32,000 bases of DNA from Candidatus Saccharimonadota bacterium (GCA_016432445.1 CP066689.1:960001-992000); one strand, 5' to 3'; positions 360-25,718 are shown, counted from the stretch's first letter. Notes: generated from the sequence alone by a model not told the origin. Program-made: numbers and translations.

Positions 360-454
360 GCAACAGTCTAGCAATTCAAATTAGTTACGCCAGCTGACAC
401 CCTCCTTTAAAGAAGTTTGCCAATTGCGCCAATTTAATAAGTAAAAATAAATTT

Positions 455-718
455 TCATATATTTTTAAATCTACCTTTTTTAATCTCGTTTGAACCTCTG
501 GTTACAGTAGCTACACCTACTCCCAGTTTCTCGGCTATCTCATGCTGGGGAACGCCTTTTTTAAGCATTTTCACAATCTTCAATCTCCTGGAAAACTCTA
601 TTAATTCTTTAGGAGTAAACAATCCATGAAAAAAATCAATCATCTCTCTTTCTGATTTAATCTTAAGAAAAATATCGATTAAATCTTTAAGTTTTCTATC
701 AGAAACTTCATTAAACAT
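455..718 (-). CDS. TrpR/YerC-YecD family DNA-binding protein
   Basis: 87-aa ORF. The HTH segment QHEIAEKLGVGVATVTRGSNEIKKG and the LFTPKELIEFSRRLKIVKML region match the Trp-repressor-like family as I recall it. Confidence 0.85.
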   Translation of the reverse strand: MFNEVSDRKLKDLIDIFLKIKSEREMIDFFHGLFTPKELIEFSRRLKIVKMLKKGVPQHEIAEKLGVGVATVTRGSNEIKKGRFKNI

Positions 719-9155: not shown

Positions 9156-9200
9156 TAAACTTCATCCTACGACTCTCTTCAAAGAAAGTCAAATTCTTCT

Positions 9201-9208
9201 TGTATAAT
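9201..9208 (+). promoter_or_regulatory. extended -10 box TGTATAAT of ychF, leaderless layout
   Basis: TATAAT at 9203-9208, 6 nt, ATG at 9215. Confidence 0.5.
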
Positions 9209-9214
9209 ACTGTA

Positions 9215-10348
9215 ATGAAACTATCAATTGGAATTGTTGGATTGCCAAATGTTGGGAAATCCACACTTTTTAATGCCCTTCTAAAAAAACAGCAGGCTTT
9301 GGCGGCGAATTATCCTTTTGCTACAATCGAACCTAATATTGGAGTTGTTCCTGTGCCTGACGAACGGTTGGATAAACTAGCTGAAGTGGAAAAGCAAGAA
9401 CACAAAATGGATAAACTTCCACCAAAAGTGCCAGCAACGGTTAAATTTGTCGACATTGCCGGACTTGTAAAAGGCGCAGCTACAGGAGCCGGACTTGGGA
9501 ATAAATTTTTATCCCATATCCGTGAAGTTTCAGCCATAGCTCACGTTGTTCGCGCTTTTGAAGATGAAGATGTTCCCAGATATGAAGAAGCTCGCCCGCT
9601 AACGCCTGAGCGTAGCGATGGCGAGCGGGGCAGTGTTGATCCTAAAACCGATTATGAGATTATAAAAACCGAACTAATTTTAGCCGATCTTCAAACATTA
9701 GAAAATTCAAAACGCAAAACTCAAAACCCACAACCCATAACTCAAAAACTCATAGATGCTTTGAATAAAGGCATTCCTGCCCGTGATATTGAACTTAGCG
9801 ATGATGAACAAAAGTTTGCAGATCAATTATTTTTACTTTCTGCAAAAGAAGAGATAATCGTTTTAAATGTTTCAGAAAATGAGTACACTGAAGAAAAAAT
9901 TCCAGAGTTTATTAAAAAATATTCTGAGATTTTAGAAGTCCCTCAAGAAAAATTCACTGTCATTTCAGCCAAAATTGAGTCGGAACTCTCAGCTTTATCT
10001 GAGGAAGAACAAAAAGAATATTTAAAAGAATTGGGGCTTTCACAATCAGGTTTGGAAAGACTAATAAAAAAAGCTTATGAGACTTTGGGATTAATCTCTT
10101 TTTTAACAGCAGGAGAAAAAGAAGTGCGGGCTTGGACCATCACCAAAGGAATGACTGCTCCTCAAGCCGCCGGTGTAATACACACTGATTTTGAAAAACA
10201 TTTCATCAAAGCCGATATTGTTCCTTTCTCTCAATTTGTGGAAACAAACGGATGGATTAAAGCCCGGGAACTGGGAAAAATCCAAATCGTTGGCCGCGAT
10301 TATGAGATGAAAGATGGAGATGTAGTGGAGTTTAAGGTGGGAGTTTAA
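9215..10348 (+). CDS. ychF: redox-regulated ATPase YchF
   Basis: [24 protein letters not shown]-loop. [14 protein letters not shown]-terminal TGS-like ...[33 protein letters not shown]...DGDVVEFKV. Start set at ATG 9215; the track's TTG at 9200 lies inside the promoter. Confidence 0.95.
9590..9626. repeat. G+C-rich 37-nt palindromic insert, in frame within ychF
   Basis: GCTCGCC-CGCTA-a-CGC-ctga-GCG-TAGCG-at-GGCGAGC gives nested 7+5+3 bp stems. It encodes part of the extra segment [14 protein letters not shown], which lies between FEDED and VDP. As I recall the family, only about 7 residues usually sit there. Confidence 0.6.
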
Positions 10349-10356
10349 AATCAGTT

Positions 10357-11748
10357 TTAGGACAAAGACTCATTTGCTAATTTTTTAACTTCGGGAATCG
10401 CCATAACTGCTACTTTTGGCTTAGGAGGAAACATTTCATAATATCTGCTACCTGAAGTCTGCAGTGGTCTATTCCTTAATGAATCTTGTGAATGGTTAAT
10501 CTTAACAATAGCCTCTGGAGTTAAGTTTACTCTCATTTCATACGAAGAAGCAGCTACAGATTGTCCTTGTAATACTTCCCAGAAAGTAACAGTAACACCA
10601 GGTATTACTGTAGGAAATGTCATCTCGCCTATTCGATGGTGAGATTTTAAAGCCTCTTGATGAAGTAAAATAAGAGGATCAGTAGGTTCTCCGTTAACAT
10701 TGGCTATTACACCTAATTTATCTATTAAAGTCTTCATCACGAAATCTCCATTTCCAGGAGAAGTTTGAATCGACAGTGGATATCTGCGATGCCCGCCATA
10801 TTTACGGTCATATCCAAAAAGATAATCAACTACTTCTTTAGCAATATCTTTATCAGTTGTTCCATCTTTTCTCCTTTTATTTCTGTACTGAAACTCCCTT
10901 CGAATATCTTCTTCAAAATACGCCAGTGTGTTACGTTTACTGGCTAACCTGTCACCTATGATATCGCACTCGCTTCTTCTATAAGGATCCTCTAGATAAA
11001 CTTGACCAACCGCACCTATTAAATCATTGATTGCCCCATCTATCCGAACTAGAGGATTTGAAGACTCTCCCGTATCTACCTCATCAGTTGAGTGTTTCAT
11101 ACTCATATCTACGGCTTCAAAAAACATTGTTTGATCTTTCTGATCTCCTACCTTAAAACTGACACAAGGAATGGATCTGCTGAAAAATGACTCTGCAGTG
11201 CGATGAGCTACCTCATTAACTACTTCTTGATAGTCTGTATTTAGATTATTTAGTTTCCAGTTTTCTATTAGAGCGTTAGGATCCCCCGGTTCTTTTTGAT
11301 CAAAAGAAGGCAATTTCGGCCGATTGACTGGGTTTAAACTATCAAGTTGTCTTCTGAAATAATATTCGTTAGCATCATAACTTGGATAAAAAGCTAACCC
11401 AATTATTCCATGTTCTGCCGATACTCCAAGATACATTTTTAAATCCGCCGTATCTGTTCGGGCGGCACTATACATTCCTTCTGTATTAAGGGGAAGTTTT
11501 TTTATAATCGCCGTATTCAGAATAACCAGATCACAGTCTGCGTCTCCTTTTCTACTTTTTCCTCTGGCTTTTGTTTCACGAATGGCAGTACAAAAACTTC
11601 TGCCCTGACTTTCTGCTTTTTCTTCCTCACCCAGCAAAAATTTAATTAACCCCTTGTTGTTTTCTGGAGATTTTGGTTTTTCAAGAAATGTCTTAATCTC
11701 TTTAGAGAAAGGAGAAATAGACTTAGTTTGTCCTGGTTCAGGTTCCAT
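10357..11748 (-). CDS. orphan 463-aa cytoplasmic protein, no family recognised
   Basis: Long ORF. The track start (TTG 11784) is actually the -35 hexamer of its promoter. ATG 11748 (MEPEPGQ...) sits 6 nt after a TATCAT box. Confidence 0.8.
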   Translation of the reverse strand: MEPEPGQTKSISPFSKEIKTFLEKPKSPENNKGLIKFLLGEEEKAESQGRSFCTAIRETKARGKSRKGDADCDLVILNTAIIKKLPLNTEGMYSAARTDTADLKMYLGVSAEHGIIGLAFYPSYDANEYYFRRQLDSLNPVNRPKLPSFDQKEPGDPNALIENWKLNNLNTDYQEVVNEVAHRTAESFFSRSIPCVSFKVGDQKDQTMFFEAVDMSMKHSTDEVDTGESSNPLVRIDGAINDLIGAVGQVYLEDPYRRSECDIIGDRLASKRNTLAYFEEDIRREFQYRNKRRKDGTTDKDIAKEVVDYLFGYDRKYGGHRRYPLSIQTSPGNGDFVMKTLIDKLGVIANVNGEPTDPLILLHQEALKSHHRIGEMTFPTVIPGVTVTFWEVLQGQSVAASSYEMRVNLTPEAIVKINHSQDSLRNRPLQTSGSRYYEMFPPKPKVAVMAIPEVKKLANESLS

Positions 11749-11754
11749 GAGTCT

Positions 11755-11784
11755 ATGATATATAAAATTTATAGTCTTTGTCAA
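11755..11784 (-). promoter_or_regulatory. sigma70-like promoter, leaderless layout
   Basis: Minus strand: TTGACA (11784-11779), 18-nt spacer, TATCAT (11760-11755), 6 nt, ATG 11748. Confidence 0.55.
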
Positions 11785-11798
11785 GCATCAACATCCCC

Positions 11799-11827
11799 TT
11801 GACTTTATCTGGTAGATTTCTTAATAT
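11799..11827 (+). promoter_or_regulatory. sigma70-like promoter firing into the gene-poor island
   Basis: TTGACT (11799-11804), 17-nt spacer, TAATAT (11822-11827). Back-to-back with the 11755-11784 promoter. Confidence 0.55.
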
Positions 11828-11947
11828 ATCTTCTAGCCTTATAGCAAAGGCTTTATTTATGACACTGAGATAAAAATAAATCATCCAAAAAGCTAAGATG
11901 ACTTAATTTTCATCGCACTTTTACAAATTTAGTTAGTTACAAAAAAT

Positions 11948-12002
11948 CTGAAGGCAGATTATTTTGGTAGGACAATGTCCTATTAAGATAATCTGTCTTC
12001 AG
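11948..12002 (+). other. 55-nt near-perfect RNA hairpin
   Basis: CTGAAGGCAGATTAT (11948-11962) pairs with ATAATCTGTCTTCAG (11988-12002): 15 bp including one G-U that is only valid on the plus-strand RNA. Inner stem TAGGAC-aat-GTCCTA. Confidence 0.6.
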
Positions 12003-12037
12003 GTTGAAGATAGAAATATATTTTCGGAGGTACAAGT

Positions 12038-12151
12038 ATGATCAACCCGCCGAATTATTTCACGGGCCACTGTCGTGTGGTTGATGATGATGTGAGGCTC
12101 CATTTGGGCAGTTACTCGGAGCTTCTGTTTTCGGCAAAATTCTGCCATTAG
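12038..12151 (+). CDS. candidate micro-ORF (37 aa) with a canonical SD
   Basis: GGAGG at 12026-12030, 7 nt, ATG 12038. Own translation: MINPPNYFTGHCRVVDDDVRLHLGSYSELLFSAKFCH, then TAG. Not in the ORF track because it is too short. Confidence 0.3.
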   Translation: MINPPNYFTGHCRVVDDDVRLHLGSYSELLFSAKFCH

Positions 12152-12279
12152 AGCAGACGCCGACTTGGATCAAATCCAAATCCGAGAACTTACCCATCAA
12201 ACGGTTGAACAGGACATGACTTCGGTTAAGTTCTGCTCGACTCATCGTCCGTAACCCAATTTTTAAGGAGGTAAAGAAC

Positions 12280-12465
12280 ATGACGGCAAACACTGTTCCT
12301 CGAGTTGTCACAACCACACGAAGAACGACGATCGGGTCTACCGTCGAGTGTCTGGGCCATCAAGAAGCTACCCATGGTCAAGCTGACGCTGTTTCTACGG
12401 ACACCACCAAGAAGGGAACTTCACCCACCGGCTACGCGTGCCATCGCCCTGTTCGCCGCGTCTGA
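12280..12465 (+). CDS. candidate small protein (61 aa, Thr/Arg-rich) with a canonical SD
   Basis: AAGGAGG at 12265-12271, 8 nt, ATG 12280. Track ORF MTANTVPRVVTTTRRTTIGSTVECLGHQ.... The composition is not typical of a folded protein. Confidence 0.35.
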   Translation: MTANTVPRVVTTTRRTTIGSTVECLGHQEATHGQADAVSTDTTKKGTSPTGYACHRPVRRV

Positions 12466-12616
12466 CCACTCTGGCTCTTGAGGTGGTTTTCCGCGCACAT
12501 GCCTAGTTGCACGCGATCGTTGGACAGGAACACATCTTGTGTTCTATTCGAAAGGATGGCGATGCCTCTGAAATGGTCATAATCGTAGAAGTTCGTAACA
12601 ACTAAGCCAAGACACC

Positions 12617-12750
12617 GGAGCGGGGGTCAAAGAGAGTATTCGGGGCTTCCCACAAGGTAGCCGCCACTAATACGATGAAGCCAACCAGCTTCTCGCCTCA
12701 GACGACATTCGTCTTTAATACTACACTCTCTCCCCGCTCCCCATTTTTTT
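12617..12750 (+). ncRNA. structured RNA element (four-way junction) ending in a U-tract, class unknown
   Basis: Closing helix GGAGCGGGG-gtcaa-AGAGAGT (12617-12637) pairs with ACTCTCTCCCCGCTCC (12725-12740). Internal hairpins: 12644-12662 (GGCT/AGCC), 12677-12692 (GAAGC/GCTTC) and 12700-12714 (AGACGA/TCGTCT). T7 run at 12744-12750. Confidence 0.45.
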
Positions 12751-12763
12751 ATCCTTTTTAAAT

Positions 12764-13621
12764 TTATTTACTGCGAAGATACTTCATGTAGGCTCTTGGA
12801 AAACGGAGAGCAGAAAAGAAAGAGAATACTACTCCTTGCCAACCATCTAAAATTCCTTTATGTCTTATTTGTGTCAATAAAAACCAGTGAAGAGGTTTAA
12901 TAACAATGTAATTAATAAACATACCAACACCTTTGTCCATATTTTTTTCCTGCATTTCCTTGGCAATCACATTAATATACCGTCTATTTCTGGCAAGATA
13001 TCGGTTAAAATCAACATCCGCATAATGAAGAATAGCATTTTTAAAGTAACCTATCTGACCATCAACCTCAACATTTTCGTGAACGCTTTTACAAGGAAAT
13101 CGAGCCTTGCCATTTTTGTATAAACGGATTGTATAATCGGGATAAACTCCACCCTTCATCAAAAACCGCCCTAAAAAATAATTTTTTCGGGGAACCCAAT
13201 AGGCAATAAATTTAGAATTATGAATTGAGAATTCAGAATTAAATTTAGAATTTAGAATTGATTTTTCTGTTTGTTTATTCTTAATTCTGAACTCTGAATT
13301 CTGAATTTGAAGAAGATTTGCAATCTCAAATCGCAAATCTTTTGAAAGGGCTTCATCGGCATCCAACTGAAGTATCCACTCCCCTTTTGCCTTATCCAAT
13401 GCTTTTTGCTTATTGATATGAAACATTGGAGGGTTGTTTTCATGAAAAATTTTTACCTTTTCGCCGTATTTTTGGGCAATCTCCACTGTTTTATCAGTTG
13501 ACCCGCCATCAACTATGACAACTTCGTCTACCAGATCGTAGGCTGAATCTAGTGGATAGTGGATAAACTTTTCCTCATTATATGCGGCAATGCAGAGTGA
13601 TAATATCATAGGTATAACCAT
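12764..13621 (-). CDS. family 2 glycosyltransferase with an internal low-complexity insert
   Basis: LSLCIAAYNEEKFI...VVIVDGGSTDKTVEIA...ILQLDADE GT-A signature, and a conserved C-terminal half YWVPRKNYFLGRFLMKGGVYPDYTIRLY. Confidence 0.9.
   Translation of the reverse strand: MVIPMILSLCIAAYNEEKFIHYPLDSAYDLVDEVVIVDGGSTDKTVEIAQKYGEKVKIFHENNPPMFHINKQKALDKAKGEWILQLDADEALSKDLRFEIANLLQIQNSEFRIKNKQTEKSILNSKFNSEFSIHNSKFIAYWVPRKNYFLGRFLMKGGVYPDYTIRLYKNGKARFPCKSVHENVEVDGQIGYFKNAILHYADVDFNRYLARNRRYINVIAKEMQEKNMDKGVGMFINYIVIKPLHWFLLTQIRHKGILDGWQGVVFSFFSALRFPRAYMKYLRSK
13208..13312. repeat. AT-rich heptamer / inverted-repeat insert, in frame within the GT2 gene
   Basis: 7-nt periodic units: tttagaa, ttatgaa, ttgagaa, ttcagaa, ttaaatt, tagaatt, tagaatt. 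The inverted partner is ttaattctgaactctgaattctgaattt. GAGAATTCAGAATTAA (13227-13242) versus TTAATTCTGAACTCTG (13281-13296) matches 14 of 16 as an inverted repeat. Encodes IQNSEFRIKNKQTEKSILNSKFNSEFSIHNSKF. Confidence 0.65.
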
Positions 13622-14352: not shown

Positions 14353-14892
14353 ATGATAAAAATAGTTACTGTTCCCAACTCCGTTCTTAACTCCCCTGCC
14401 CAGCCTGTTACTAAAATTGACGATAAGATCAAAAACCTGGTTTATGATATGGAAGAGGTATTGATTGCTCAAATTGATCCTCAGGGAGTTGGTTTAGCCG
14501 CCCCGCAGGTTGGAATCTCTTTACAAATTTTCCTTATCAAACCTGAACGCAATCAGGAAACCGAAGTCTTCATCAACCCCAAAATTCTAGAAGTAAAAAC
14601 TCAAAACCCATCACCCACAACCCAGAACGTAAAAAGTCCTAAAGATAAGCTCGAAGGTTGTCTCTCCATCCCCCGCATTTGGGGGCCTGTTAAAAGAGCC
14701 AATAAAGTAAAACTTCAGTATCAAACGCTTGCCGGTGAAACTAAAACCCAGTGGTTTACCGGCCTTAAAGCCGCTATCATCCAGCATGAAATGGATCATT
14801 TAAATGGTATTTTATTTACGCAAAAAGCCTTGGAACAAAAAACTCCTCTTTATGAAGAAGAAAATGGAGAGTTCACGAAAGTGAATTATTAG
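14353..14892 (+). CDS. def: peptide deformylase
   Basis: The three canonical motifs are present: GVGLAAPQVG, EGCLSIP and QHEMDHLNG. Carries an extra ~12-aa segment (KTQNPSPTTQNVKSPKDKL) before EGCLSIP. Confidence 0.95.
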   Translation: MIKIVTVPNSVLNSPAQPVTKIDDKIKNLVYDMEEVLIAQIDPQGVGLAAPQVGISLQIFLIKPERNQETEVFINPKILEVKTQNPSPTTQNVKSPKDKLEGCLSIPRIWGPVKRANKVKLQYQTLAGETKTQWFTGLKAAIIQHEMDHLNGILFTQKALEQKTPLYEEENGEFTKVNY

Positions 14893-14895
14893 TTA

Positions 14896-15010
14896 AATCC
14901 AAATGTCAAATTTCAAATTTCAAAAAAATCATTTGACATTTAAAATTTAGATTAAAATTTAGATTTTGGATTTGTTTTGGCATTTGTCATTTGGACTTTG
15001 GATTTATAGT
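14896..15010. repeat. heptamer arrays in inverted arrangement (AAATnCA units, then their complement)
   Basis: Forward units: aaatcca, aatgtca, aatttca, aatttca. Complement units: ggcattt, gtcattt, ggacttt, ggattta. Nested inverted pairs: AAATGTCAAAT (14901-14911) with ATTTGACATTT (14931-14941), and AAATCCAAA (14896-14904) with TTTGGATTT (14965-14973). Overlaps the 3' end of rpmB. Confidence 0.7.
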
Positions 15011-15267: not shown

Positions 15268-15347
15268 TAAAATGTCAAAATTCAAATACCAAATCAAATC
15301 CAAAATCCTAAAAATATTTGACATTTGTCATTTGAACTTTGGATTTA
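15268..15347. repeat. heptamer arrays upstream of rpmB, same word family as 14896-15010
   Basis: Forward units: aaaatgt, caaaatt, caaatac, caaatca, aatccaa, aatccta. Complement units: ttgacat, ttgtcat, ttgaact, ttggatt. The 25-mer CATTTGTCATTTGAACTTTGGATTT (15322-15346) matches 14981-15005 at 24 of 25 positions as a direct repeat. Confidence 0.7.
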
Positions 15348-15399
15348 ATTTAAGATGATTTATGATATCATATAAGTACTTTAAAATCAATTTAAATTT

Positions 15400-16059: not shown

Positions 16060-16689
16060 TTAAAGCGCTGGAGTAGCTGAGACTGTAGCGGTTGGGACAG
16101 CGCTGGTTGAAGCTGATTTTTGTTTACAGATTAACCAATCCCGGGCCGTACAACCTTTACCTATTTTTGTCTTAATTTTATTACAATCCGTTTCATCACA
16201 GGTTTGAACCGTTGATGCGTCATTTTGAGGGAGAACTAACGTAGACATAGGTGAAGGTCTAGTAATTGTTGTTGGCTTTGCCACAGGAGCTTGAGTTTTT
16301 TCTGTTCCTTTGGTCGTAAATGTCCAAGGCACCCCGCCATTATCATATTTTTGATCAGCAATTCTTATCTGGAAATAATAAGTTGTAGCCGGAGAGAGAA
16401 GAGTCAGATCAACAATATGGCTTTTGGTTTTTTGAGGTTCCGGAGCAAAAAAATTAAGGGCCGTCGGAGAGGTACCATATTCAATAACTCCTTGTGTTTC
16501 CTCACCTGTAGACCAGGACACTTTAACGCTGTTTTGAGATAAATCTGATACAATGACATCACGCGGAGCTATATCGCTTGCTTTCGTAAGAGTTCCTTGA
16601 AGTAGCTTAAAACCCATAACCAGCACAAAAATGCCTATAACACTACCTATTATTATTGAAGCTATCCTAACTAAAGTATGCTGATTCAT
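16060..16689 (-). CDS. membrane-anchored fibronectin type III domain protein
   Basis: N-terminal TM helix IASIIIGSVIGIFVLVMGF. FN3-like VSDLSQNSVKVSWSTGEETQGVIEYGTSP...ATTYYFQIRI. The start overlaps the upstream stop (ATGA). Confidence 0.75.
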   Translation of the reverse strand: MNQHTLVRIASIIIGSVIGIFVLVMGFKLLQGTLTKASDIAPRDVIVSDLSQNSVKVSWSTGEETQGVIEYGTSPTALNFFAPEPQKTKSHIVDLTLLSPATTYYFQIRIADQKYDNGGVPWTFTTKGTEKTQAPVAKPTTITRPSPMSTLVLPQNDASTVQTCDETDCNKIKTKIGKGCTARDWLICKQKSASTSAVPTATVSATPAL

Positions 16690-17387
16690 AAGAGTTTAAA
16701 TCCTATGCCAATTAAAAATAATAATGTTCCAGCCGCAATAAAAATGGGGAGATTATTTTCTGTGATTCCTGATCTTGGCAGTTGAGAGACTGCCGTTGGA
16801 GCGGCAGTAGCATAAGTATTTGATGAAGAGGCAAGTGTGGGAGTGGCTGTTGGGTTGGAAGTATTACCGGCGCCTACAGTAACTGCTGATGTTCCATTAC
16901 TGGCGCAAAGGATAAGATCAGTACCGTTTAGATCATTTTTGGTAATATGTGAACCAGTGGCTGGACCGCAGGTAAAGCTCAAGTTAGCAGTACCATTTTT
17001 CAAGGCCTTAAATACGACTGTCGCTAAAGTACCGCTTCCTGACTTTGAAGTGGCAACATCATCAACTAACCCAACTACATAGACTGTACCGCCGGTCATA
17101 GTAGGATTGGTGACGGTTGTGAATATTGTACCGTTAGTGACTCCTTGTGGCTCGAGAACTGTTTGATCGTAAGTTATCACTGCGTCAACGCCTAAGTATT
17201 GATCGGTTGAAAGAGCATCAATTTTAACAGCTACCTCAAATGTTTGACCGGCAGTAGTAGTAACTGCGGCTGGATCAAACTTTAGTGCAGCCGCAAAAAC
17301 ATTTTTAAGCTGTGGTACCACAAAAAAAACTGCCAATAAGATTACTATCTGGAAAAAAATCCTTTTTATTTGCATTACATCTATCAT
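16686..17387 (-). CDS. cohesin-domain surface protein with an LPxSG-type C-terminal sorting signal
   Basis: Signal/TM segment, then the cohesin-like LKFDPAAVTTTAGQTFEVAVKIDAL...GVDAVITYDQTVLEP...TLATVVFKALKNGTANLSF. LPRSG (codons 16781-16767) is followed by a hydrophobic helix and a K-containing tail. Confidence 0.75.
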   Translation of the reverse strand: MIDVMQIKRIFFQIVILLAVFFVVPQLKNVFAAALKFDPAAVTTTAGQTFEVAVKIDALSTDQYLGVDAVITYDQTVLEPQGVTNGTIFTTVTNPTMTGGTVYVVGLVDDVATSKSGSGTLATVVFKALKNGTANLSFTCGPATGSHITKNDLNGTDLILCASNGTSAVTVGAGNTSNPTATPTLASSSNTYATAAPTAVSQLPRSGITENNLPIFIAAGTLLFLIGIGFKLL

Positions 17388-17420
17388 ATTCCATATTGTT
17401 TTTTATGTCAAACGTAACGA

Positions 17421-17476
17421 AATTAGATCTTAGATATTCGATATTAGATCTTCGAAAATCGAACATCAAATGTCGA
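17421..17476. repeat. TCTTAGA-type heptamer array
   Basis: Eight 7-nt units: aattaga, tcttaga, tattcga, tattaga, tcttcga, aaatcga, acatcaa, atgtcga. Same unit family as 4757-4798. Confidence 0.7.
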
Positions 17477-17483
17477 TGATCTC

Positions 17484-17918
17484 TTAAAGTACTCCTGCTT
17501 TCTTTACCATCTTAAGGTGTTCATGAAACATTGAGTGAAGAGGCACAGGCAGATTATCCAGTGAAAACCAGCCGATATTTTCTATTTTGTCAGGGTCCCC
17601 TATCTTTACTTTTTCAGGAATAACTTCGGCGGCAAAAATAACCGCTACCCAATGAGTTTTCTCTTTTCCATTTTTTCTTAAAACATTATTGACAGCAATA
17701 AACTTAAGATCAACTACCTCACTGCAGTACTCTTCCCTAATCTCGCGCCTAACAGCCTCCTCAAAAGTCTCCCCCACTCTCATCGCGCCTCCTCCCGGAT
17801 CCCAGACGCCAACCTCATCCCGGCAGTTCTTGCTTCTTTTATTCATCAAAATTTTACCTTTACCGTCATGGCAGTAAAATACGCAGCCAACGCCGATATA
17901 ATCAACCCCTTTTTTCAT
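17484..17918 (-). CDS. NUDIX hydrolase
   Basis: Nudix box GGGAMRVGETFEEAVRREIREEYCSEV in a 144-aa ORF. Confidence 0.9.
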   Translation of the reverse strand: MKKGVDYIGVGCVFYCHDGKGKILMNKRSKNCRDEVGVWDPGGGAMRVGETFEEAVRREIREEYCSEVVDLKFIAVNNVLRKNGKEKTHWVAVIFAAEVIPEKVKIGDPDKIENIGWFSLDNLPVPLHSMFHEHLKMVKKAGVL

Positions 17919-17945
17919 TTGAAGAAATTATAACAAAAGATTATA

Positions 17946-18692
17946 TTATATTTTTTTTGATGAAAGAAACTCCAGTACTCTATCTGTAGCAAAATGGATA
18001 CCTTCTAGTGGGTTTTCTGTTTTCATATAGTTAGAAACGAAATTAGCAAAGAAGGTATCTCCGGCTCCAAGTGTATTTTTAGTTTTTATCACTCGTTGTG
18101 TCTCAAAGCTATATTTTTTTCCAAAAACAAAGAGATCACAGCCTTTTGTTCCTTTAGTAATTAGCAAGATTTTCTCTTTTTGGATTTCTATAAAAGATTT
18201 AGGAATATAAGATATTTCATAATCTCCTGCCTTAAGGCAAAAAATAGATTGCTGAATTCCTTTTCCAGGGCGCCAATGTTTCTTTTTCCCAAAATCTTGG
18301 CCGTCACGGACATATCCTTGTATATCCAAAAATATTTGCCCTTTGTAATCCCCTATGCCATCTAAACTAAACTCATTCAATAGAGATGATATTAATAAAT
18401 AAGGAGCATCTATGTTTGAAAAATCAATTTTAAACGGAACTGGAACTGCTGTAATTTTCCCGAATTCATCATTTTCCTTAATAAGGATTTCTGTTTTAAG
18501 CTTAAAAACATGTTCAAGTTTAAAATCTACAGCAGCTTTCTTTAAAGCTTGCGTTATGTAATAGGCTGGGCCTCCCTTTTGTTTACTTAAGAAATTACCT
18601 TTTTCGTTATAAAGATAATCTTTGGCAAACGATGAAAAAATGGAGATATTATTTGTTTTTTTCATATTTGCTTTTAGCAAGTTGAATAGCAA
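17946..18692 (-). CDS. PfkB/ribokinase-family sugar or nucleoside kinase
   Basis: C-terminal NTLGAGDTFFANFVS (the GAGD anion-hole motif), and ILLITKGTKGCDLF before it. The start is uncertain (alternative ATG at 18665). Overlaps the upstream gene. Confidence 0.7.
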   Translation of the reverse strand: MLFNLLKANMKKTNNISIFSSFAKDYLYNEKGNFLSKQKGGPAYYITQALKKAAVDFKLEHVFKLKTEILIKENDEFGKITAVPVPFKIDFSNIDAPYLLISSLLNEFSLDGIGDYKGQIFLDIQGYVRDGQDFGKKKHWRPGKGIQQSIFCLKAGDYEISYIPKSFIEIQKEKILLITKGTKGCDLFVFGKKYSFETQRVIKTKNTLGAGDTFFANFVSNYMKTENPLEGIHFATDRVLEFLSSKKI

Positions 18693-19191
18693 ATGTTACT
18701 GCTTCTTCAGGATTTTTTGCCTCTTCAATTTTAAATCTTTTCCTATTATCTAAATATTGGCTGGCTAGTTTTTCACTCCACCCTCCGCTTCCTTTTAAAA
18801 CAACCACCGGAATATTCGCTTGATAGGCTATAGCTATTTCCGTTAACGTCCCTGACCCTCCACTAATGGCAATAATAACATCACAGCTTAAAACTAAAAC
18901 CAGTTCTCTACCGCCTCCCCTTTCCAAACCGCTGGCAATTACGACATCCACATTCTTTTCAACTATATCCATTCCTTTTCCATAAGTAACTCCTACTGTA
19001 GTTCCGTTAGCCTTTTTGGCTCCACGGCAAGCCGCAGAAGATAAAGAATCGCAATCTTTCTCTGCCCCAAACAAAAGCACGGCTTGATTTTTAGCTACCC
19101 AATAGCCTACTTCCTCTGCTAATTTTTCTATTTTTTTGGAATAGTTTAAATCAGCGCAAGAACCCATTACTCCTATCTGTATTTTTCTCAT
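18649..19191 (-). CDS. TIGR00725 / LOG-SLOG-like Rossmann protein (putative nucleotide N-glycosidase family)
   Basis: IQIGVMGS...AVLLFGA...AACRGAKKANGTTVGV...DVIIAISGGSGTLTEIAIAYQANIPVVVL matches the lysine-decarboxylase-like/LOG fold family. Confidence 0.8.
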   Translation of the reverse strand: MRKIQIGVMGSCADLNYSKKIEKLAEEVGYWVAKNQAVLLFGAEKDCDSLSSAACRGAKKANGTTVGVTYGKGMDIVEKNVDVVIASGLERGGGRELVLVLSCDVIIAISGGSGTLTEIAIAYQANIPVVVLKGSGGWSEKLASQYLDNRKRFKIEEAKNPEEAVTFAIQLAKSKYEKNK

Positions 19192-19208
19192 ATTTTGAAT
19201 TATAACAA

Positions 19209-20777
19209 CTACCTAATTAATAATTCTAAATCCTTTGGATCTTTCACGAGTAAAGTTTCCATTCCTAACTGTTGCGCCGGGTCGATATCGGTGGTCACCT
19301 GATCTCCTATAGAGATAATATTTTCAGGCTGGTACCGGCCGGCTAAAATTAAAAAGATCTCATCCTTCCTACCGTATTGCTCACCTGTGTATAAAGACTC
19401 AAAACAATCTTTTACTCTCAAAAATTTCAAAACTTGTTGAGCCCAAATTCTTGGGGCTGAAGTAAGCAAAACTAACTTTCTTTTTGGATTTTTTTCCTGA
19501 AGTTGCCTAATAGTATTCACGGCTGTTTCAAAATTTTGCACGATCCCTTCTGGATCGATATCCCAAACGACATTAAAGTAATCTGATCTTGTAATCCCAT
19601 ACCGGTTAGCTAAATATCTGCTAATCCCTATAGGGTCATTTAATCCTTGCCGTAAAATCATCTCTGCCGATTCTTCGTCACATACTTCTGTCATTATTAT
19701 AAACGCTTTTGCATTCCTTAATATTTCTTTTTCCAACTTAGATCCTTGGAAGCCATTATTAACACCATCGAGCTGATACAAAGTCCCATCCATATCGAAA
19801 ATTGCTACTTTTCTTTCTTGCTCTTCCTTAACGATCCTCAAACATCTATCTAGATAGTCAGTCACTCTCTCGTTAATGGAAACAGGAATTGTTTTTGAAA
19901 TATTTGTTGGTAAAGGGAAACCTGCCTTGACCAGCTCTTTGAATGTCAAACCGTTGGAACCGGTCGAAATTTCATATGCTTTTACCAGCTGACTAAAAGA
20001 TTTTATCATCTGTTGACTAGCATCAAAGAACCCTGGATTTTGATCTAAACTTGCACCGCAGCCATCACTCCAAGGATAAAGATAAGGTACAGAAGTAGTC
20101 ACTTTATTAGTTTTACTTGATGCCAGTTTTTTTCCTCCCAACGGACTAAAGTCTCTAATATCAATCCACTCGTATAAATTATCTATAGGTTCTGCAATAT
20201 CTGCATCAAATTTATCCATTGGCACTGACATATTGCCAATAAAACCAATAACTTTTCCTACATTAAGTTTTATTCCGTTATCAGAAGCTAAACGTAAAAA
20301 CTCCTCAACCGTACCTCCGGAAAATAATCCATCGTCAACAAGCAGGACTTTTTTTTGTGATATATCAGGAATTTTTATCCTCAGTTTAGCTATTTGACTC
20401 TCAAATGATTCATTCCCCTGCCGTGGCACTCTTTGACCATCAATAGAACGACATAAACTGAATCTGAAAAACCTATCTTCATACTCCTTTTCTTTTTCCA
20501 AACTTCCTAACAAAAACCTATCAAGGCAAACGCAGATCGTGTCAGAATCCCGTTTTAAAATTGGTTCCACCTTCTCTCTTAAACGGGATTCCATCTCTTC
20601 TTCGTAAAACCTAGCAACTTCTACGCTAGGATTTAGAAATTGAGAAAGAGCTGTCTCAACTTCGTCAAAATAAACTCTGACAGCATTGCTAAAACCGTCT
20701 TTCGATAAATCTAAACCTTTATTAATTTGAGAAAATAATCCGACTGTGTCTTGTGTAATAATATATTTTTCTGGCAT
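19209..20777 (-). CDS. fusion protein: type I phosphoribosyltransferase-like N-terminal half plus HAD-hydrolase C-terminal half
   Basis: KKVLLVDDGLFSGGTVEEF is a PRPP-binding loop. VAIFDMDGTLY is HAD motif I. LVLLTSAP is motif II-like. ISIGDQVTTDI is motif IV-like. Confidence 0.75.
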   Translation of the reverse strand: MPEKYIITQDTVGLFSQINKGLDLSKDGFSNAVRVYFDEVETALSQFLNPSVEVARFYEEEMESRLREKVEPILKRDSDTICVCLDRFLLGSLEKEKEYEDRFFRFSLCRSIDGQRVPRQGNESFESQIAKLRIKIPDISQKKVLLVDDGLFSGGTVEEFLRLASDNGIKLNVGKVIGFIGNMSVPMDKFDADIAEPIDNLYEWIDIRDFSPLGGKKLASSKTNKVTTSVPYLYPWSDGCGASLDQNPGFFDASQQMIKSFSQLVKAYEISTGSNGLTFKELVKAGFPLPTNISKTIPVSINERVTDYLDRCLRIVKEEQERKVAIFDMDGTLYQLDGVNNGFQGSKLEKEILRNAKAFIIMTEVCDEESAEMILRQGLNDPIGISRYLANRYGITRSDYFNVVWDIDPEGIVQNFETAVNTIRQLQEKNPKRKLVLLTSAPRIWAQQVLKFLRVKDCFESLYTGEQYGRKDEIFLILAGRYQPENIISIGDQVTTDIDPAQQLGMETLLVKDPKDLELLIR

Positions 20778-20929
20778 ATTGTTTAAAATAATTTTTAACC
20801 CACAAAAAACCCCGCCTTAAGCGGGGTTGTAAGTTTAAATAAATAACTAAGATTACCCCGCTGGAGCGAGGTTATGATGAACAATCTTTGAAGTTTGTAA
20901 TGTTAGACTTTTCATATTAACGTGTTAAT
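20778..20929 (-). promoter_or_regulatory. ~145-nt leader with tandem near-identical hairpins (terminator/antiterminator candidate)
   Basis: Minus-strand hairpin 1: AACCUCGC-ucca-GCGGGGUA (20873-20854, one G-U). Hairpin 2: AACCCCGC-uuaag-GCGGGGUU (20828-20808) plus a U-run. The 3' arm of hairpin 1 is perfectly complementary to the 5' arm of hairpin 2. Confidence 0.5.
20802..20828 (-). terminator. intrinsic terminator located upstream of the operon start codon
   Basis: 8-bp G+C-rich stem (20828-20821 / 20815-20808), 5-nt loop, then a U-run (plus-strand A-run 20804-20809). Only ~25 nt before ATG 20777. Confidence 0.6.
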
Positions 20930-20931
20930 AT
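20914..20931. promoter_or_regulatory. 18-bp palindrome ATATTAAC-GT-GTTAATAT, putative operator
   Basis: Perfect 8-bp arms. Abuts or overlaps the -10 box and start region of the minus-strand operon promoter, in the divergent intergenic region shared with the TrpR-like gene. Confidence 0.4.
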
Positions 20932-20958
20932 GATAACATACAGATATTTAACTGTCAA
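20930..20958 (-). promoter_or_regulatory. sigma70-like promoter of the nucleotide-centric operon
   Basis: Minus strand: TTGACA (20958-20953), 17-nt spacer, TATCAT (20935-20930). Confidence 0.55.
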
Positions 20959-20973
20959 TAGTTATTTAATGAA

Positions 20974-20981
20974 TGTATAAT
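20974..20981 (+). promoter_or_regulatory. extended -10 box TGTATAAT, leaderless layout
   Basis: TATAAT at 20976-20981, 6 nt, ATG 20988. Confidence 0.5.
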
Positions 20982-20987
20982 TTAAGT

Positions 20988-21317
20988 ATGAAGACTAAAG
21001 AGAACGTAAATACAAAATTTACTAAAACGGAATCCAGCTCTATTAAAAATAGTAAAGAAAGATTATTATTTAGAGCTCTTCTTGCGCAAAAAAATGAACA
21101 GGAAATGGCTGATTTATTAAGGGATCTTTTAACTTTACCTGAAATAGAAGAATTCTCTAACCGATTGGAAATCGCCAGGCAATTACGTGAAGGTCATTCT
21201 TACTTAAATGTTGCCCATAAAGTCGGCACCTCCACCACTACAGTTACTCGAGTTGCCCACTGGCTGTTTAAAGGCTGTGGCGGCTATTACCGCACGTTAA
21301 AGAAACTTATCAAATAA
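20988..21317 (+). CDS. TrpR/YerC-YecD family DNA-binding protein (second paralog)
   Basis: LLRDLLTLPEIEEFSNRLEIARQLREGHSYLNVAHKVGTSTTTVTRVAHWL parallels the 455-718 product. Start set at ATG 20988; the track's ATG 20973 lies upstream of the -10 box. Confidence 0.85.
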   Translation: MKTKENVNTKFTKTESSSIKNSKERLLFRALLAQKNEQEMADLLRDLLTLPEIEEFSNRLEIARQLREGHSYLNVAHKVGTSTTTVTRVAHWLFKGCGGYYRTLKKLIK

Positions 21318-21322
21318 TCAAC

Positions 21323-21931: not shown

Positions 21932-21954
21932 ATAATTTTAGTAAAAAAAATAAT

Positions 21955-23142: not shown

Positions 23143-23143
23143 T

Positions 23144-25707: not shown

Positions 25708-25718
25708 AAACAATTTTC

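What the first reader, a model, noticed from the sequence alone, without database searches (positions are those of the whole stretch)
11790..12760. Near gene-free, G+C-richer ~0.95-kb island that looks like a dedicated plus-strand transcription unit
This lies between two minus-strand genes in a genome with otherwise tiny spacers. Reading 5' to 3' on the plus strand:
- a consensus-like promoter (TTGACT-17-TAATAT, 11799-11827);
- an AT-rich 5' part with a small hairpin (AGCCTT/AAGGCT);
- a 55-nt hairpin;
- two micro-ORFs with the best Shine-Dalgarno boxes in the window;
- several hairpins, for example GAACACA-tct-TGTGTTC at ~12520-12545;
- a 124-nt four-way junction and a T7 run.

Sampled lines are about half G+C, against about one-third in the neighbours. 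There is no integrase, transposase or terminal inverted repeat. Candidates are a large structured ncRNA, a dual-function RNA encoding small peptides, a small-peptide toxin or RiPP-like locus, or a remnant of foreign DNA.
Basis: partly seen in the sequence, partly recalled or inferred. Interest (0 to 1): 0.65.

Follow-up and report, generated by a model that had tools for sequence, protein, structure and literature searches.

The report
Orphan structured RNA locus with micro-ORFs
A 0.9-kb G+C-rich stretch in a tiny-genome (CPR) bacterium is a real stand-alone unit whose RNA is predicted to fold far more tightly than anything else nearby and which carries two small ribosome-ready reading frames, but it has no relative in any database searched, so its function stays open.

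Summary
Window 11790-12760 is the G+C peak of the window (0.54 against a mean of 0.38) and has no ORF longer than 85 aa. Its predicted plus-strand fold (z about -8 to -12) lies far outside 32 control windows of the same length (mean -0.5, minimum -3.1).

It has a promoter-like site, a 29-bp hairpin whose five wobble pairs work only on the plus strand, a 124-nt four-way junction followed by T7, and two GGAGG-spacer-ATG micro-ORFs of 37 and 61 codons. Such a pair appears in 5 of 20,000 shuffles. The 26 annotated genes checked lack Shine-Dalgarno boxes, and many look leaderless.

It matches no Rfam family and no protein family in any frame. No mobile-element genes or end repeats were found.

The host is a Microgenomates-type CPR bacterium. 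In relatives, ychF and the GT2 gene are adjacent. The island and a divergent 463-aa gene without any homolog therefore fill a variable slot.

No homolog of the island, its peptides or the neighbouring protein was found, so covariation cannot be tested.

Best reading (about 0.4): a probably foreign, heavily structured small-ORF mRNA or dual-function RNA. Rivals are a pure large ncRNA and an inert foreign remnant. Interest is moderate.

The parts
10357..11748 (-). A 463-aa gene without any homolog, transcribed divergently from the island. It fills the same lineage-specific slot between ychF and the GT2 gene.
   Evidence: - Long ORF with host-like codon use: CAI 0.70, GC3 0.25.
- No homolog in 5.8 billion clustered proteins or in 1.84 billion representatives searched by phmmer.
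- No hit in Pfam, NCBIfam or PDB sequences; only chance-level hits in PADLOC (E 0.011) and PHROGs (E 0.26).
- The AlphaFold2 model is unusable, mean pLDDT 33.
- In relatives L022, L023 and L028, ychF and the GT2 gene are adjacent with nothing between them.
11755..11784 (-). Promoter-like site for the 463-aa gene (TTGACA-18-TATCAT, 11 of 12 matches). Its -10 box ends 6 nt before the ATG at 11748, a leaderless layout.
   Evidence: for the promoter match. One search shows the same '-10 box 5-8 nt before ATG' layout at several other genes of the window.
11799..11827 (+). Promoter-like site for the island (TTGACT-17-TAATAT, 9 of 12 matches). It sits back to back with the divergent promoter. The inferred transcription start is about 11834.
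   Evidence: This is a consensus match only and is not significant by itself: 5 sites were found against 2.8 expected.
11835..11852 (+). Hairpin AGCCUU-AUAGCA-AAGGCU at the inferred 5' end of the transcript.
   Evidence: pair probability 0.96.
11853..11944 (+). A+U-rich leader. The segment 11928-11940 is predicted to pair with 12595-12606 and so close the whole core.
   Evidence: helices 11928-11934/12600-12606 and 11936-11940/12595-12599, probability 0.88-0.97.
11945..12005 (+). A 29-bp hairpin with a 3-nt loop. It is strand-specific, with 5 G-U pairs. It is inferred to be an RNase III-type double-stranded RNA substrate.
   Evidence: - Plus strand: -39.5 kcal/mol, z -10.9, 29 pairs including 5 G-U.
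- Minus strand: -24.0 kcal/mol, 22 pairs.
- Symmetric wobble count for this hairpin: 5 G-U on the plus strand, 0 on the minus strand.
12026..12151 (+). GGAGGU Shine-Dalgarno box (12026-12031), a 6-nt spacer (7 nt counted from GGAGG), and a 37-codon ORF (12038-12151: MINPPNYFTGHCRVVDDDVRLHLGSYSELLFSAKFCH).
   Evidence: - Anti-Shine-Dalgarno duplex energy -10.9 kcal/mol.
- GC1/2/3 of 0.51/0.35/0.59 and CAI 0.49, which is not host-like.
- The AUG is predicted to be paired: P(unpaired) is 0.06 and rises to 0.62 when 12574-12606 is blocked.
- No relatives in JGI metagenome contigs.
12073..12321 (+). Domain A, a 249-nt multi-branched domain. It is closed by an interrupted 23-bp stem (12073-12097 with 12298-12321) and contains a C(UUCG)G tetraloop at 12220-12225.
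   Evidence: - z -5.6 on the plus strand against -3.5 on the minus strand.
- Helix probabilities 0.92-0.99.
- The closing stem pairs codons 12-20 of the 37-codon ORF with codons 7-14 of the 61-codon ORF (read directly).
12265..12465 (+). AAGGAGGU Shine-Dalgarno box (12265-12272), a 7-nt spacer (8 nt counted from GGAGG), and a 61-codon ORF (12280-12465). The product is Thr/Arg-rich and of low complexity.
   Evidence: - Anti-Shine-Dalgarno duplex energy -12.5 kcal/mol, the strongest in the window.
- GC2 of 0.62 is atypical for proteins.
- The only database match is the identical sequence on one Logan contig.
- The ribosome-binding region is predicted to be accessible, 0.63.
12329..12500 (+). Central G+C-rich stretch that holds the body of the 61-codon ORF. 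Its predicted structure is no better than chance.
   Evidence: z -0.3 on the plus strand and +1.7 on the minus strand.
12504..12594 (+). Domain C hairpin (12504-12570, including GGAACACA-UCU-UGUGUUCU at 12527-12545), followed by the segment 12574-12594 that pairs back onto the first ribosome-binding site and AUG (12026-12044).
   Evidence: z -4.0 on the plus strand. Helix 12037-12044/12574-12581 has probability 0.88. Accessibility test.
12617..12750 (+). A 124-nt four-way junction: a 9+7-bp G+C-rich closing stem and three hairpins, followed by CCA and U7 (12744-12750). It is inferred to be the terminator and 3' stabiliser.
   Evidence: - z -6.3 on the plus strand and -7.35 on the minus strand, so the fold itself does not indicate a strand.
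- Helix probabilities 0.90-1.00.
- The T-run lies only on the plus strand.
- A covariance model of this domain found only itself in 677 kb of CPR loci.

Best explanation
The island is a self-contained plus-strand transcription unit of about 0.92 kb. It runs from a promoter-like site at 11799-11827 to U7 at 12744-12750, in a Microgenomates-type CPR bacterium.

Its product is most likely a heavily structured small-ORF mRNA, that is, a dual-function-RNA-like transcript. It carries two real ribosome-binding sites, with reading frames of 37 and 61 codons, embedded in long-range RNA structure.

**Shown by computation**
- The composition, the exceptional predicted fold and the non-random ribosome-binding signals.
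- The lack of any known RNA-family or protein-family match.
- The position in a variable slot between ychF and a GT2 gene, next to a divergently transcribed 463-aa gene that has no homolog.

**Inferred**
- The unit came from outside. Its G+C content, codon use and Shine-Dalgarno use all differ from the host, whose genes are mostly leaderless or lack Shine-Dalgarno boxes.
- Structure gates translation. The first AUG is masked by pairing with a segment about 540 nt downstream, so the 37-codon ORF could be read mainly during transcription or after 3' processing.
- The 29-bp hairpin is a likely RNase III site.
- The 3' four-way junction plus U7 ends and stabilises the RNA.

What the peptides or the RNA do in the cell is not known.
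For: - **Composition.** G+C peak and ORF-free gap.
- **Fold.** z -8.2 to -11.7 on the plus strand, against a background of -0.54 +/- 1.32. Domain z-scores are -10.9, -5.6, -4.0 and -6.3.
- **Strand.** The hairpin's wobble pairs, the promoter-like site, the T7 run and both ribosome-binding sites lie on the plus strand.
- **Ribosome-binding signals.** Two GGAGG-ATG-ORF signals occur in 5 of 20,000 shuffles. They are the only strong Shine-Dalgarno boxes in front of ORFs of at least 30 codons, apart from a 65-aa ORF at 762-959. That ORF suggests the host can use Shine-Dalgarno-led initiation on mRNAs that have a leader.
- **Foreign character.** CAI 0.49 and 0.53 against 0.58-0.77 for host genes; GC3 0.59 and 0.52 against 0.22-0.42.
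- **Masked first AUG.** P(unpaired) is 0.06 and rises to 0.62 when 12574-12606 is blocked.
- **Variable slot.** ychF and the GT2 gene abut in L022, L023 and L028. Unrelated genes fill the slot in L025 and L034.
- **Real DNA.** The sequence is 100% identical in 9 independent Logan assemblies that include one or both flanks, so it is not an assembly artefact.
Against: - No homolog was found, so neither the peptides nor the helices have evolutionary support.
- The 61-aa product looks like a by-product of an A/C-rich RNA strand: 23% Thr and GC2 of 0.62. The body of that ORF is the one stretch without significant structure.
- A symmetric wobble count over all helices shows no overall strand bias: 14 pairs favour the plus strand and 16 the minus strand.
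- The promoter match is only 9 of 12.
- The second ribosome-binding site is predicted to be open whether or not the 37-codon ORF is being translated. The idea that the long stem couples the two ORFs is therefore not supported.
- Transcription and translation are untested.
Confidence: 0.4

Rival explanations
1. A pure large structured non-coding RNA of about 0.7-0.9 kb. The GGAGG-AUG elements would be structural or would bind the free 3' end of 16S rRNA rather than start translation. It might work together with the divergently encoded 463-aa protein that has no homolog.
For: - Raised G+C in an A+T-rich genome is the classical signature of structural RNA genes (established knowledge). The island is the G+C maximum of the window.
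- The fold z-score is extreme.
- The 5' and 3' regions are predicted to pair and close a multi-domain core.
- There is a C(UUCG)G tetraloop and a four-way junction.
- The 61-aa product looks non-protein-like.
- Neither peptide has a homolog.
Against: - Two optimally spaced Shine-Dalgarno-ATG-ORF signals are very unlikely by chance (5 of 20,000 shuffles).
- No Rfam family matches.
- The helices are long and nearly perfect (29 bp, 23 bp, 16 bp). This is more typical of regulatory or processing stems than of old, ornate RNAs (inference).
- About 170 nt in the centre are not significantly structured.
- No covariation data are available.
Confidence: 0.22
2. An inert or decaying remnant of horizontally acquired DNA, from a phage, a plasmid or the bacterial host of this epibiont. 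It would have landed in a variable slot and have no present function.
For: - It is absent from relatives, where ychF and the GT2 gene abut.
- The slot holds different cargo in other lineages.
- G+C content, codon use and Shine-Dalgarno use are foreign to the host.
- No homolog was found anywhere.
Against: - The promoter-like site, both ribosome-binding sites with their ORFs, and the stem plus U7 are all intact and on one strand.
- CPR genomes are compact, and a useless 1 kb would be expected to be lost (established knowledge; inference).
- No protein homology in any frame points to a decayed gene.
- No donor sequence was found in the phage or plasmid collections.
- No insertion scars were found.
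Confidence: 0.2
3. A hok/AapA-type (type I) toxin-antitoxin or addiction module. In such modules a very stable, folded-back mRNA keeps a small toxic peptide untranslated until it is processed.
For: - The first AUG and ribosome-binding site are predicted to be masked by pairing with a segment about 540 nt downstream, and to be released when that segment is removed.
- The RNA is highly structured and has small Shine-Dalgarno-led ORFs.
- The locus is lineage-specific and insertion-like.
Against: - Neither peptide has a hydrophobic, membrane-spanning stretch (read directly).
- The RNA is two to three times longer than known type I toxin mRNAs (established knowledge).
- No convincing antisense promoter was found. 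The only minus-strand site inside the unit is a 9-of-12 match within the hairpin.
- There is no Rfam hit to any toxin-antitoxin RNA.
Confidence: 0.08
4. A precursor-peptide (RiPP or glycocin-like) locus that uses the neighbouring GT2 glycosyltransferase and DsbB.
For: - Both peptides contain Cys and His residues.
- The adjacent genes are a GT2, whose best NCBIfam hit is the SunS S-glycosyltransferase, and a DsbB-family protein. This recalls the sublancin cluster sunA-sunS-bdbB (established knowledge).
Against: - The SunS hit scores 47 bits against a cut-off of 350 and covers only the generic GT-A domain.
- The GT2-DsbB-Def-L28-M50 gene order is conserved in relatives that lack the island.
- The peptides have no C-X6-C pairs and no leader motif (read directly), and the window shows no C39-peptidase or ABC-transporter domain.
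- The GT2 gene converges on the island rather than being co-transcribed with it.
Confidence: 0.03
5. A decayed pseudogene of a protein-coding gene.
For: The region has no long ORF and sits in a gene-sized slot.
Against: - No Pfam match in any of six frames at E up to 10, apart from two chance-level hits.
- tblastx against 80 related loci gives nothing better than E 0.45.
- Stop codons of all three kinds occur in every frame.
- The exceptional RNA fold and the intact ribosome-binding sites are not expected of a decayed gene.
Confidence: 0.03

Closest known systems
Dual-function RNAs such as Staphylococcus RNAIII (514 nt, encodes delta-haemolysin), SgrS/SgrT and SR1/SR1P
   Same: - An independent transcription unit with its own promoter and terminator.
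- Many stable hairpins, with long-range pairing between the 5' and 3' regions.
- One or more Shine-Dalgarno-led micro-ORFs inside a structured RNA.
- Restricted to a single lineage.
   Different: - It is about twice as long and has two ORFs.
- No target-pairing function, regulator or conservation is known.
- No sequence or covariance-model similarity to any of them.
Large ornate bacterial ncRNAs: OLE, GOLLD, ROOL, HEARO and raiA (cryo-EM work: PMC12286853)
   Same: - Size class of 0.6-0.9 kb.
- A G+C-rich island in an A+T-rich genome.
- A multi-domain predicted fold.
- Unknown biochemical function.
   Different: - None of these families matches, even at E up to 10.
- Those RNAs are defined by hundreds of covarying homologs, whereas this is a single sequence.
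- They do not carry canonical ribosome-binding sites with ORFs.
- There are no flanking tRNAs or prophage genes, which GOLLD and ROOL often have (Pfam).
hok/sok and aapA/IsoA type I toxin mRNAs
   Same: A stable, folded-back mRNA in which a distant 3' segment is predicted to mask the start region of a small ORF.
   Different: - The peptides are not hydrophobic.
- No antisense RNA gene is evident.
- The RNA is much longer.
- No family match.
RNA-phage-style long-distance translational control (the MS2 Min Jou interaction)
   Same: The coding sequences of two cistrons pair with each other over about 225 nt (12073-12097 with 12298-12321).
   Different: - The second ribosome-binding site is predicted to be open with or without that stem, so coupling is not supported.
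- This is a DNA-encoded chromosomal locus.

Membership tests
Any Rfam 15 family (including OLE, GOLLD, ROOL, HEARO, raiA, group I and II introns, RNase P, tmRNA, 6S, riboswitches, toxin-antitoxin RNAs) | Covariance-model score at or above the family's gathering threshold | tested here: not met
   - 0 hits in the whole window on both strands.
- At E up to 10, over 11600-12900, there are only chance-level microRNA and leader matches of 23 bits or less, far below their thresholds.
- ARAGORN finds no tRNA or tmRNA.
Structured ncRNA (generic) | Fold significantly more stable than composition-matched shuffles and than the genomic background | tested here: met
   z -8.2 and -11.7 on the plus strand, against a background of -0.54 +/- 1.32 with minimum -3.1.
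Structured ncRNA (generic) | Compensatory base changes (covariation) across homologs | not testable with these tools
   No homolog was found. The nine other copies are 100% identical. Searches were empty.
Dual-function RNA / small-ORF mRNA | Shine-Dalgarno box, correct spacing, start codon and an open frame inside the transcript | tested here: met
   GGAGG-7-ATG (37 codons) and AAGGAGG-8-ATG (61 codons). Duplex energies are -10.9 and -12.5 kcal/mol. Two such signals occur in 5 of 20,000 shuffles.
Dual-function RNA / small-ORF mRNA | Peptide conserved or detected, and a separate base-pairing regulatory role | not testable with these tools
   The 61-aa peptide has no homolog in 5.8 billion protein clusters. 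The 37-aa ORF has no relative in JGI metagenome contigs. No expression data are available.
Intrinsic (Rho-independent) terminator | G+C-rich stem directly followed by a U-run | tested here: inconclusive
   A 9+7-bp G+C-rich stem at 12617-12637/12725-12740 is followed by CCA and U7. However, the stem encloses an 87-nt three-hairpin junction instead of a short loop, so the terminator scan did not list it.
Type I toxin-antitoxin (hok/sok-like) | Small hydrophobic membrane toxin | tested here: not met
   Neither peptide has a hydrophobic stretch of transmembrane length (sequences).
Type I toxin-antitoxin (hok/sok-like) | Fold-back of the 3' region onto the translation start | tested here: inconclusive
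   Predicted only. P(unpaired) of the first AUG rises from 0.06 to 0.62 when 12574-12606 is blocked.
Glycocin / SunA-SunS type RiPP cluster | SunS-family peptide glycosyltransferase (TIGR04195 at or above 350 bits) dedicated to the precursor | tested here: not met
   The score is 47 bits and covers only the GT-A domain. The GT2-DsbB pair is conserved in relatives that lack the island.
Glycocin / SunA-SunS type RiPP cluster | Precursor with paired C-X6-C motifs and a cleavable leader | tested here: not met
   The 37-aa peptide has Cys12 and Cys36. The 61-aa peptide has Cys24 and Cys54. Neither has a C-X6-C motif.
Mobile element (IS, MITE, integrative element) | Transposase or integrase gene, terminal inverted repeats, target-site duplication | tested here: not met
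   No such Pfam domains in the window. No repeats bracket 10349-12763 or 11790-12760.
Pseudogene | Residual protein homology in some frame | tested here: not met
   Six-frame Pfam scan. tblastx against 80 related loci. A concatenated six-frame query against the large protein collection returned nothing, but it also missed the known self-hit, so it is uninformative.

The most novel reading that the evidence does not exclude
The island encodes a previously unseen class of large (0.7-0.9 kb) structured RNA in CPR bacteria. One version has it working as a ribonucleoprotein with the divergently encoded 463-aa protein that has no homolog. Another has its two perfect anti-Shine-Dalgarno-binding sites engaging ribosomes in a cell whose own mRNAs are mostly leaderless, so that the micro-ORFs are incidental.
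Probability: 0.1. Interest if true: 0.75.

Novelty: new member of a known kind. Interest (0 to 1): 0.4.

Why it matters
CPR bacteria have tiny, tightly packed genomes, and almost nothing is known about their regulatory RNAs or small proteins.

This locus devotes about 1 kb to an RNA that is predicted to be far more structured than anything else in the window. It also carries the window's only two strong Shine-Dalgarno sites with a long leader, in a genome whose genes otherwise look leaderless. That makes it a concrete, testable candidate for RNA-based or micro-protein-based biology in this group.

It would also show how Shine-Dalgarno-led and leaderless initiation coexist in one cell.

Its weakness is that it is a single sequence. 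Without homologs it cannot yet support a new RNA family, and it may be no more than recently acquired foreign DNA.

Tried and rejected
**Known RNA families.**
- Rfam at gathering thresholds on the whole window, and at E up to 10 on the island: nothing.
- tRNA and tmRNA search: nothing.

**DNA similarity.**
- blastn in distant mode against the phage and plasmid collections: no match.
- blastn and nhmmer of the island against 80 ychF loci from GTDB species representatives: nothing.
- tblastx against the same loci: nothing.

**Exact look-ups.**
- The 61-aa ORF and the 463-aa neighbour were found only on Logan contigs from one series of runs (SRR121133xx-134xx). All are 100% identical to the window, so they give no variation.

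**Protein searches.**
- The 463-aa neighbour matched only itself. The 61-aa ORF matched only itself.
- A concatenated six-frame pseudo-protein was used as a stand-in for a nucleotide search of the 5.8-billion-protein collection. It returned nothing and also failed to recover the known self-hit, so I treat it as uninformative.

**Pattern scans.** I used translated island frames as queries so that six degenerate 24-nt patterns were scanned per call.
- Viral contigs: none.
- JGI metagenome contigs: none.

**Structure-based attempts.**
- A covariance model of the 3' four-way junction, searched over 677 kb of CPR loci, found only itself.
- AlphaFold2 on the 463-aa protein gave mean pLDDT 33, which is unusable, so I did no fold search.

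**Family libraries for the neighbour and the peptides.** Pfam, PADLOC, NCBIfam, PHROGs and PDB sequences: nothing.

**Tests that did not support an idea.**
- Fixed 240-nt fold windows cut the long-range helices and under-rated the island. I replaced them with domain-wise and 920-nt tests. A first, larger scan timed out.
- A wobble-pair strand test over all helices showed no overall bias, 14 against 16. An earlier one-sided count was biased by the folding algorithm, and I do not use it.
- Translational coupling of the two ORFs through the long stem is not supported.
- The glycocin idea (GT2 and DsbB neighbours) is rejected.
- Similarity between the island and the other structured non-coding stretch at 205-440: none.
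- Insertion scars and flanking repeats: none.

**Literature.** Searches for a described large RNA in CPR bacteria, and for the run accession, gave nothing usable.
Full report
**1. What is there**

The stretch 11790-12760 lies between two minus-strand genes. One is a 463-aa ORF (10357-11748). The other is a family-2 glycosyltransferase, GT2 (12764-13621).

- **Composition.** In 400-nt windows, G+C rises to 0.475-0.517 for windows starting at 12000-12400, against 0.32-0.38 in the flanks. In 300-nt windows, the maximum of the whole 32 kb (0.543) lies at 12351-12700.
- **Coding.** Nothing longer than 85 aa is open in any frame, and all three kinds of stop codon occur in every frame. When stop-to-stop ORFs of at least 120 aa are masked, this is the only ORF-free gap of the window with raised G+C.
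All are present, with small corrections:
  - TTGACT-17-TAATAT at 11799-11827 (9 of 12 matches).
  - The AGCCTT/AAGGCT hairpin at 11835-11852.
  - A 61-nt, 29-bp hairpin at 11945-12005, not 55 nt.
  - Two micro-ORFs, at 12038-12151 and 12280-12465.
  - The GGAACACA/UGUGUUCU hairpin at 12527-12545.
  - A 124-nt four-way junction at 12617-12740, followed by CCA and T7 at 12744-12750.

**2. Is it more than chance?**

- **Whole unit.** The plus-strand RNA 11834-12753 folds at -315 kcal/mol against -241 for dinucleotide shuffles. That is z -11.7 with 12 shuffles and z -8.2 with 20 shuffles.
- **Background.** Thirty-two control windows of 920 nt, taken on both strands from the coding parts of the window, give a mean z of -0.54, sd 1.32 and minimum -3.1. 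The minus strand of the island gives -6.8.
- **Domains on the plus strand:**
  - 29-bp hairpin: z -10.9.
  - 12073-12321: z -5.6.
  - 12504-12570: z -4.0.
  - 12617-12740: z -6.3.
  - 12329-12500, most of the 61-codon ORF: z about 0, so not significantly structured.
- **Fixed short windows.** Windows of 240 nt under-rate the island because its main helices are long-range.
- **Ribosome-binding signals.** The duplex energies with the anti-Shine-Dalgarno sequence are -10.9 and -12.5 kcal/mol, against -4.1 or weaker for 26 annotated genes. Two GGAGG-(4-10 nt)-ATG sites with ORFs of at least 30 codons occur in only 5 of 20,000 dinucleotide shuffles of the island.

**3. Which strand?**

- **Plus-strand signals.** The promoter-like site, both ribosome-binding sites and the T-run are on the plus strand.
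- **The hairpin.** The 29-bp hairpin has five G-U pairs that would be A-C mismatches on the other strand: -39.5 against -24.0 kcal/mol, and 29 against 22 pairs.
- **All helices together.** A symmetric count over all helices predicted on either strand shows no overall wobble bias. Fourteen pairs favour the plus strand and 16 the minus strand. The 3' junction folds about equally well on both strands.
- **Conclusion.** The strand assignment therefore rests on the signals and the hairpin, not on the G+C-rich core.

**4. Context**

- **Organism.** The YchF protein encoded at 9200-10348 is at best 64% identical to YchF of Levyibacteriota and other Microgenomates-type Patescibacteria MAGs. The organism is thus a sparsely sampled CPR bacterium.
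- **The slot.** In relatives L022, L023 and L028, ychF and the GT2 gene are directly adjacent and are followed by DsbB, Def, L28 and an M50 peptidase.
  - In the window, 2.4 kb sit between them: the 463-aa gene and the island.
  - In L025 and L034 the same slot holds unrelated genes, a hypothetical protein and a DEAH helicase.
  - The slot is therefore variable, and the island is lineage-specific cargo.
- **No insertion marks.** No flanking repeats, integrase or transposase mark the insertion.
- **The neighbouring gene.**
  - *Codon use.* It is host-like (CAI 0.70, GC3 0.25).
  - *Homologs.* It has none among 5.8 billion protein clusters or 1.84 billion representatives read by phmmer.
  - *Promoter.* Its promoter-like site (TTGACA-18-TATCAT, 11 of 12 matches) ends 6 nt before the ATG, a leaderless layout.
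- **Host translation signals.** That layout recurs at many genes of the window, which also lack Shine-Dalgarno boxes.
  - The only other Shine-Dalgarno-led ORF of at least 30 codons is a 65-aa membrane-type ORF at 762-959. This suggests the host can use Shine-Dalgarno boxes on mRNAs that have leaders.
  - The micro-ORFs of the island have non-host codon use: CAI 0.49 and 0.53, GC3 0.59 and 0.52, against 0.22-0.42 for host genes.

**5. Identity searches**

- **RNA families.** Rfam 15 gave no hit at gathering thresholds anywhere in the window, and only chance-level matches at E up to 10 over the island. No tRNA or tmRNA was found.
- **Protein families.** There is no Pfam match in any of the six frames. 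PADLOC, NCBIfam, PHROGs and PDB sequences gave nothing for the peptides or the neighbouring protein.
- **DNA collections.** blastn against the phage and plasmid collections was empty. So were blastn, nhmmer and tblastx against 80 related ychF loci.
- **The 61-aa ORF.** It occurs only as an identical sequence.
- **Other copies.** The island is found on nine Logan contigs from one series of runs. All are 100% identical and include one or both flanks, so it is real DNA but gives no variation.
- **Pattern scans.** Degenerate patterns derived from translated island frames found no relative in IMG/VR or in JGI metagenome contigs.
- **Covariance model.** A model of the 3' junction found only itself in 677 kb of CPR loci.
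- **Uninformative search.** A concatenated six-frame query to the large protein collection returned nothing, but it also missed the known self-hit.
- **Consequence.** Covariation cannot be assessed.

**6. Anatomy and likely working**

The predicted architecture comes, with pair probabilities mostly 0.8-1.0.

- **Layout, 5' to 3':**
  - A 5'-terminal hairpin.
  - An A+U-rich leader, whose segment 11928-11940 pairs with 12595-12606.
  - The 29-bp hairpin.
  - A core (12026-12594) closed by 12026-12044 pairing with 12574-12594.
  - The 3' four-way junction and U7.
- **Inside the core:**
  - Domain A (12073-12321), closed by an interrupted 23-bp stem.
  - A poorly structured centre.
  - Domain C.
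- **Overlap of stem and ORFs.** The 23-bp stem pairs codons 12-20 of the 37-codon ORF (CRVVDDDVR) with codons 7-14 of the 61-codon ORF (PRVVTTTR). RNA pairing and coding constraints therefore overlap there.
- **First ORF.** Its AUG is predicted to be paired (P unpaired 0.06) and is released (0.62) if 12574-12606 is blocked. This suggests translation mainly during transcription or after 3' processing.
- **Second ORF.** Its ribosome-binding region is predicted to be open (0.63) whether or not the 37-codon ORF is occupied. The attractive idea of coupling through the long stem is not supported.
- **Protein-likeness.**
  - *37-codon ORF.* Its position-specific G+C looks protein-like (0.51/0.35/0.59).
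  - *61-codon ORF.* Its product is 23% Thr, with GC2 of 0.62, and looks like a by-product of an A/C-rich strand.
- **Inferences.** A 29-bp perfect RNA duplex is a plausible RNase III substrate. The G+C-rich stem plus U7 is a plausible terminator and 3' stabiliser.

**7. Verdict on explanations**

- **Best (about 0.4):** a probably horizontally acquired, heavily structured small-ORF mRNA, or dual-function-RNA-like transcript.
- **Rivals:**
  - A pure large ncRNA (about 0.22). Its weakness is the two non-random ribosome-binding sites.
  - An inert foreign remnant (about 0.2). Its weakness is that all signals are intact in a compact genome.
  - A hok-like type I toxin mRNA (about 0.08). The peptides are not hydrophobic, and no antisense gene is seen.
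  - A glycocin or RiPP locus using the GT2 and DsbB neighbours (about 0.03). The SunS hit scores 47 bits against a cut-off of 350. GT2 and DsbB are conserved without the island. There are no C-X6-C motifs.
  - A pseudogene (about 0.03). No homology in any frame.

**8. Comparison with known systems**

- In layout, the locus most resembles dual-function RNAs such as RNAIII. These are independent units with many hairpins, 5'-3' closure, an embedded Shine-Dalgarno-led small ORF and a single-lineage distribution. It is longer than RNAIII, has two ORFs, and has no demonstrated regulatory role.
- In size and G+C signature it recalls OLE, GOLLD and ROOL (PMC12286853). It fails their covariance models, lacks their defining covariation, and carries ribosome-binding sites.
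- It is not a member of any tested family.

**9. Novelty and score**

- I rate it as a new, orphan member of a known kind: a structured small-ORF or dual-function RNA locus.
- The fold statistics are striking. The contrast between its Shine-Dalgarno boxes and an otherwise leaderless-looking gene set is unusual.
- A single sequence with no conservation and no expression data is weak ground, and recent foreign DNA remains a live explanation.
- Interest is 0.4.
- The most novel reading still open is a new class of large CPR RNA, perhaps partnered with the neighbouring 463-aa protein or engaging ribosomes. I give it about 0.1.

Noticed in passing
window, upstream of many genes (e.g. starts at 718-, 11748-, 13664+, 17918-, 19191-, 25713-, 26088+): The annotated genes lack Shine-Dalgarno boxes (anti-Shine-Dalgarno duplex -4.1 kcal/mol or weaker for 26 genes). 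At least 8 genes have a TATAAT-like box ending 5-8 nt before the start codon, often with a TTGACA-like -35 box. This suggests a largely leaderless mode of translation initiation in this CPR bacterium.
   Followed up: partly
window 205-440, minus strand: A second non-coding, G+C-richer (0.44) and structured stretch lies downstream of an 87-aa Trp-repressor-like gene (455-718). It contains three AAGGAGG motifs and a CCCUCC-GAAA-GGAGGG hairpin followed by U7. The 240-nt window 241-480 (minus strand) has a fold z of -5.4. It has no Rfam hit and no similarity to the island. It may be a small RNA or a leader for the gene that starts at 186 on the minus strand.
   Followed up: partly
window 9694-9754 (inside ychF) and 14581-14641 (inside def): A 61-nt A/C-rich direct repeat, 75% identical, lies in frame inside two unrelated conserved genes. 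It encodes [10 protein letters not shown] in one and KTQNPSPTTQ in the other, in loops that vary among relatives.
   Followed up: partly
window 9575-9616 (ychF codons 126-139): YchF carries a 14-residue insertion relative to relatives L023 and L028. It lies in a locally G+C-rich patch (0.48 at 9351-9650).
   Followed up: no
window 13209-13311 (inside the GT2 gene): Tandem 7-nt repeats (AATTTAG and ATTCTGA) form a 27-nt inverted repeat inside the coding sequence. The 240-nt window 13201-13440 (minus strand) has the strongest fold z (-5.6) of the fixed-window scan.
   Followed up: no
window 14893-14924, 14976-15006, 15317-15348: Repeats of about 32 nt (TTTGACATTTGTCATTTGAACTTTGGATTTA and its inverse) lie around the ribosomal protein L28 gene: one copy on each side and one inside its 3' end.
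   Followed up: no
window 16686-25713: A cluster of cohesin- and dockerin-domain genes with internal GTTGGAGTTGG-type repeats and paralogous segments (repeat families D1-D6). This is a cellulosome-like surface system in a CPR genome.
   Followed up: no
window 10357-11748, minus strand: The 463-aa neighbour has no detectable homolog among 1.84 billion representative proteins, although its codon use is host-like. AlphaFold2 gives mean pLDDT 33.
   Followed up: yes
L036 11078-11771: In a Paceibacterota relative, the G+C-richer ORF-free stretch just downstream of ychF contains a tRNA gene at 11165-11247 on the minus strand. This is an ordinary explanation there and is unrelated to the island.
   Followed up: yes
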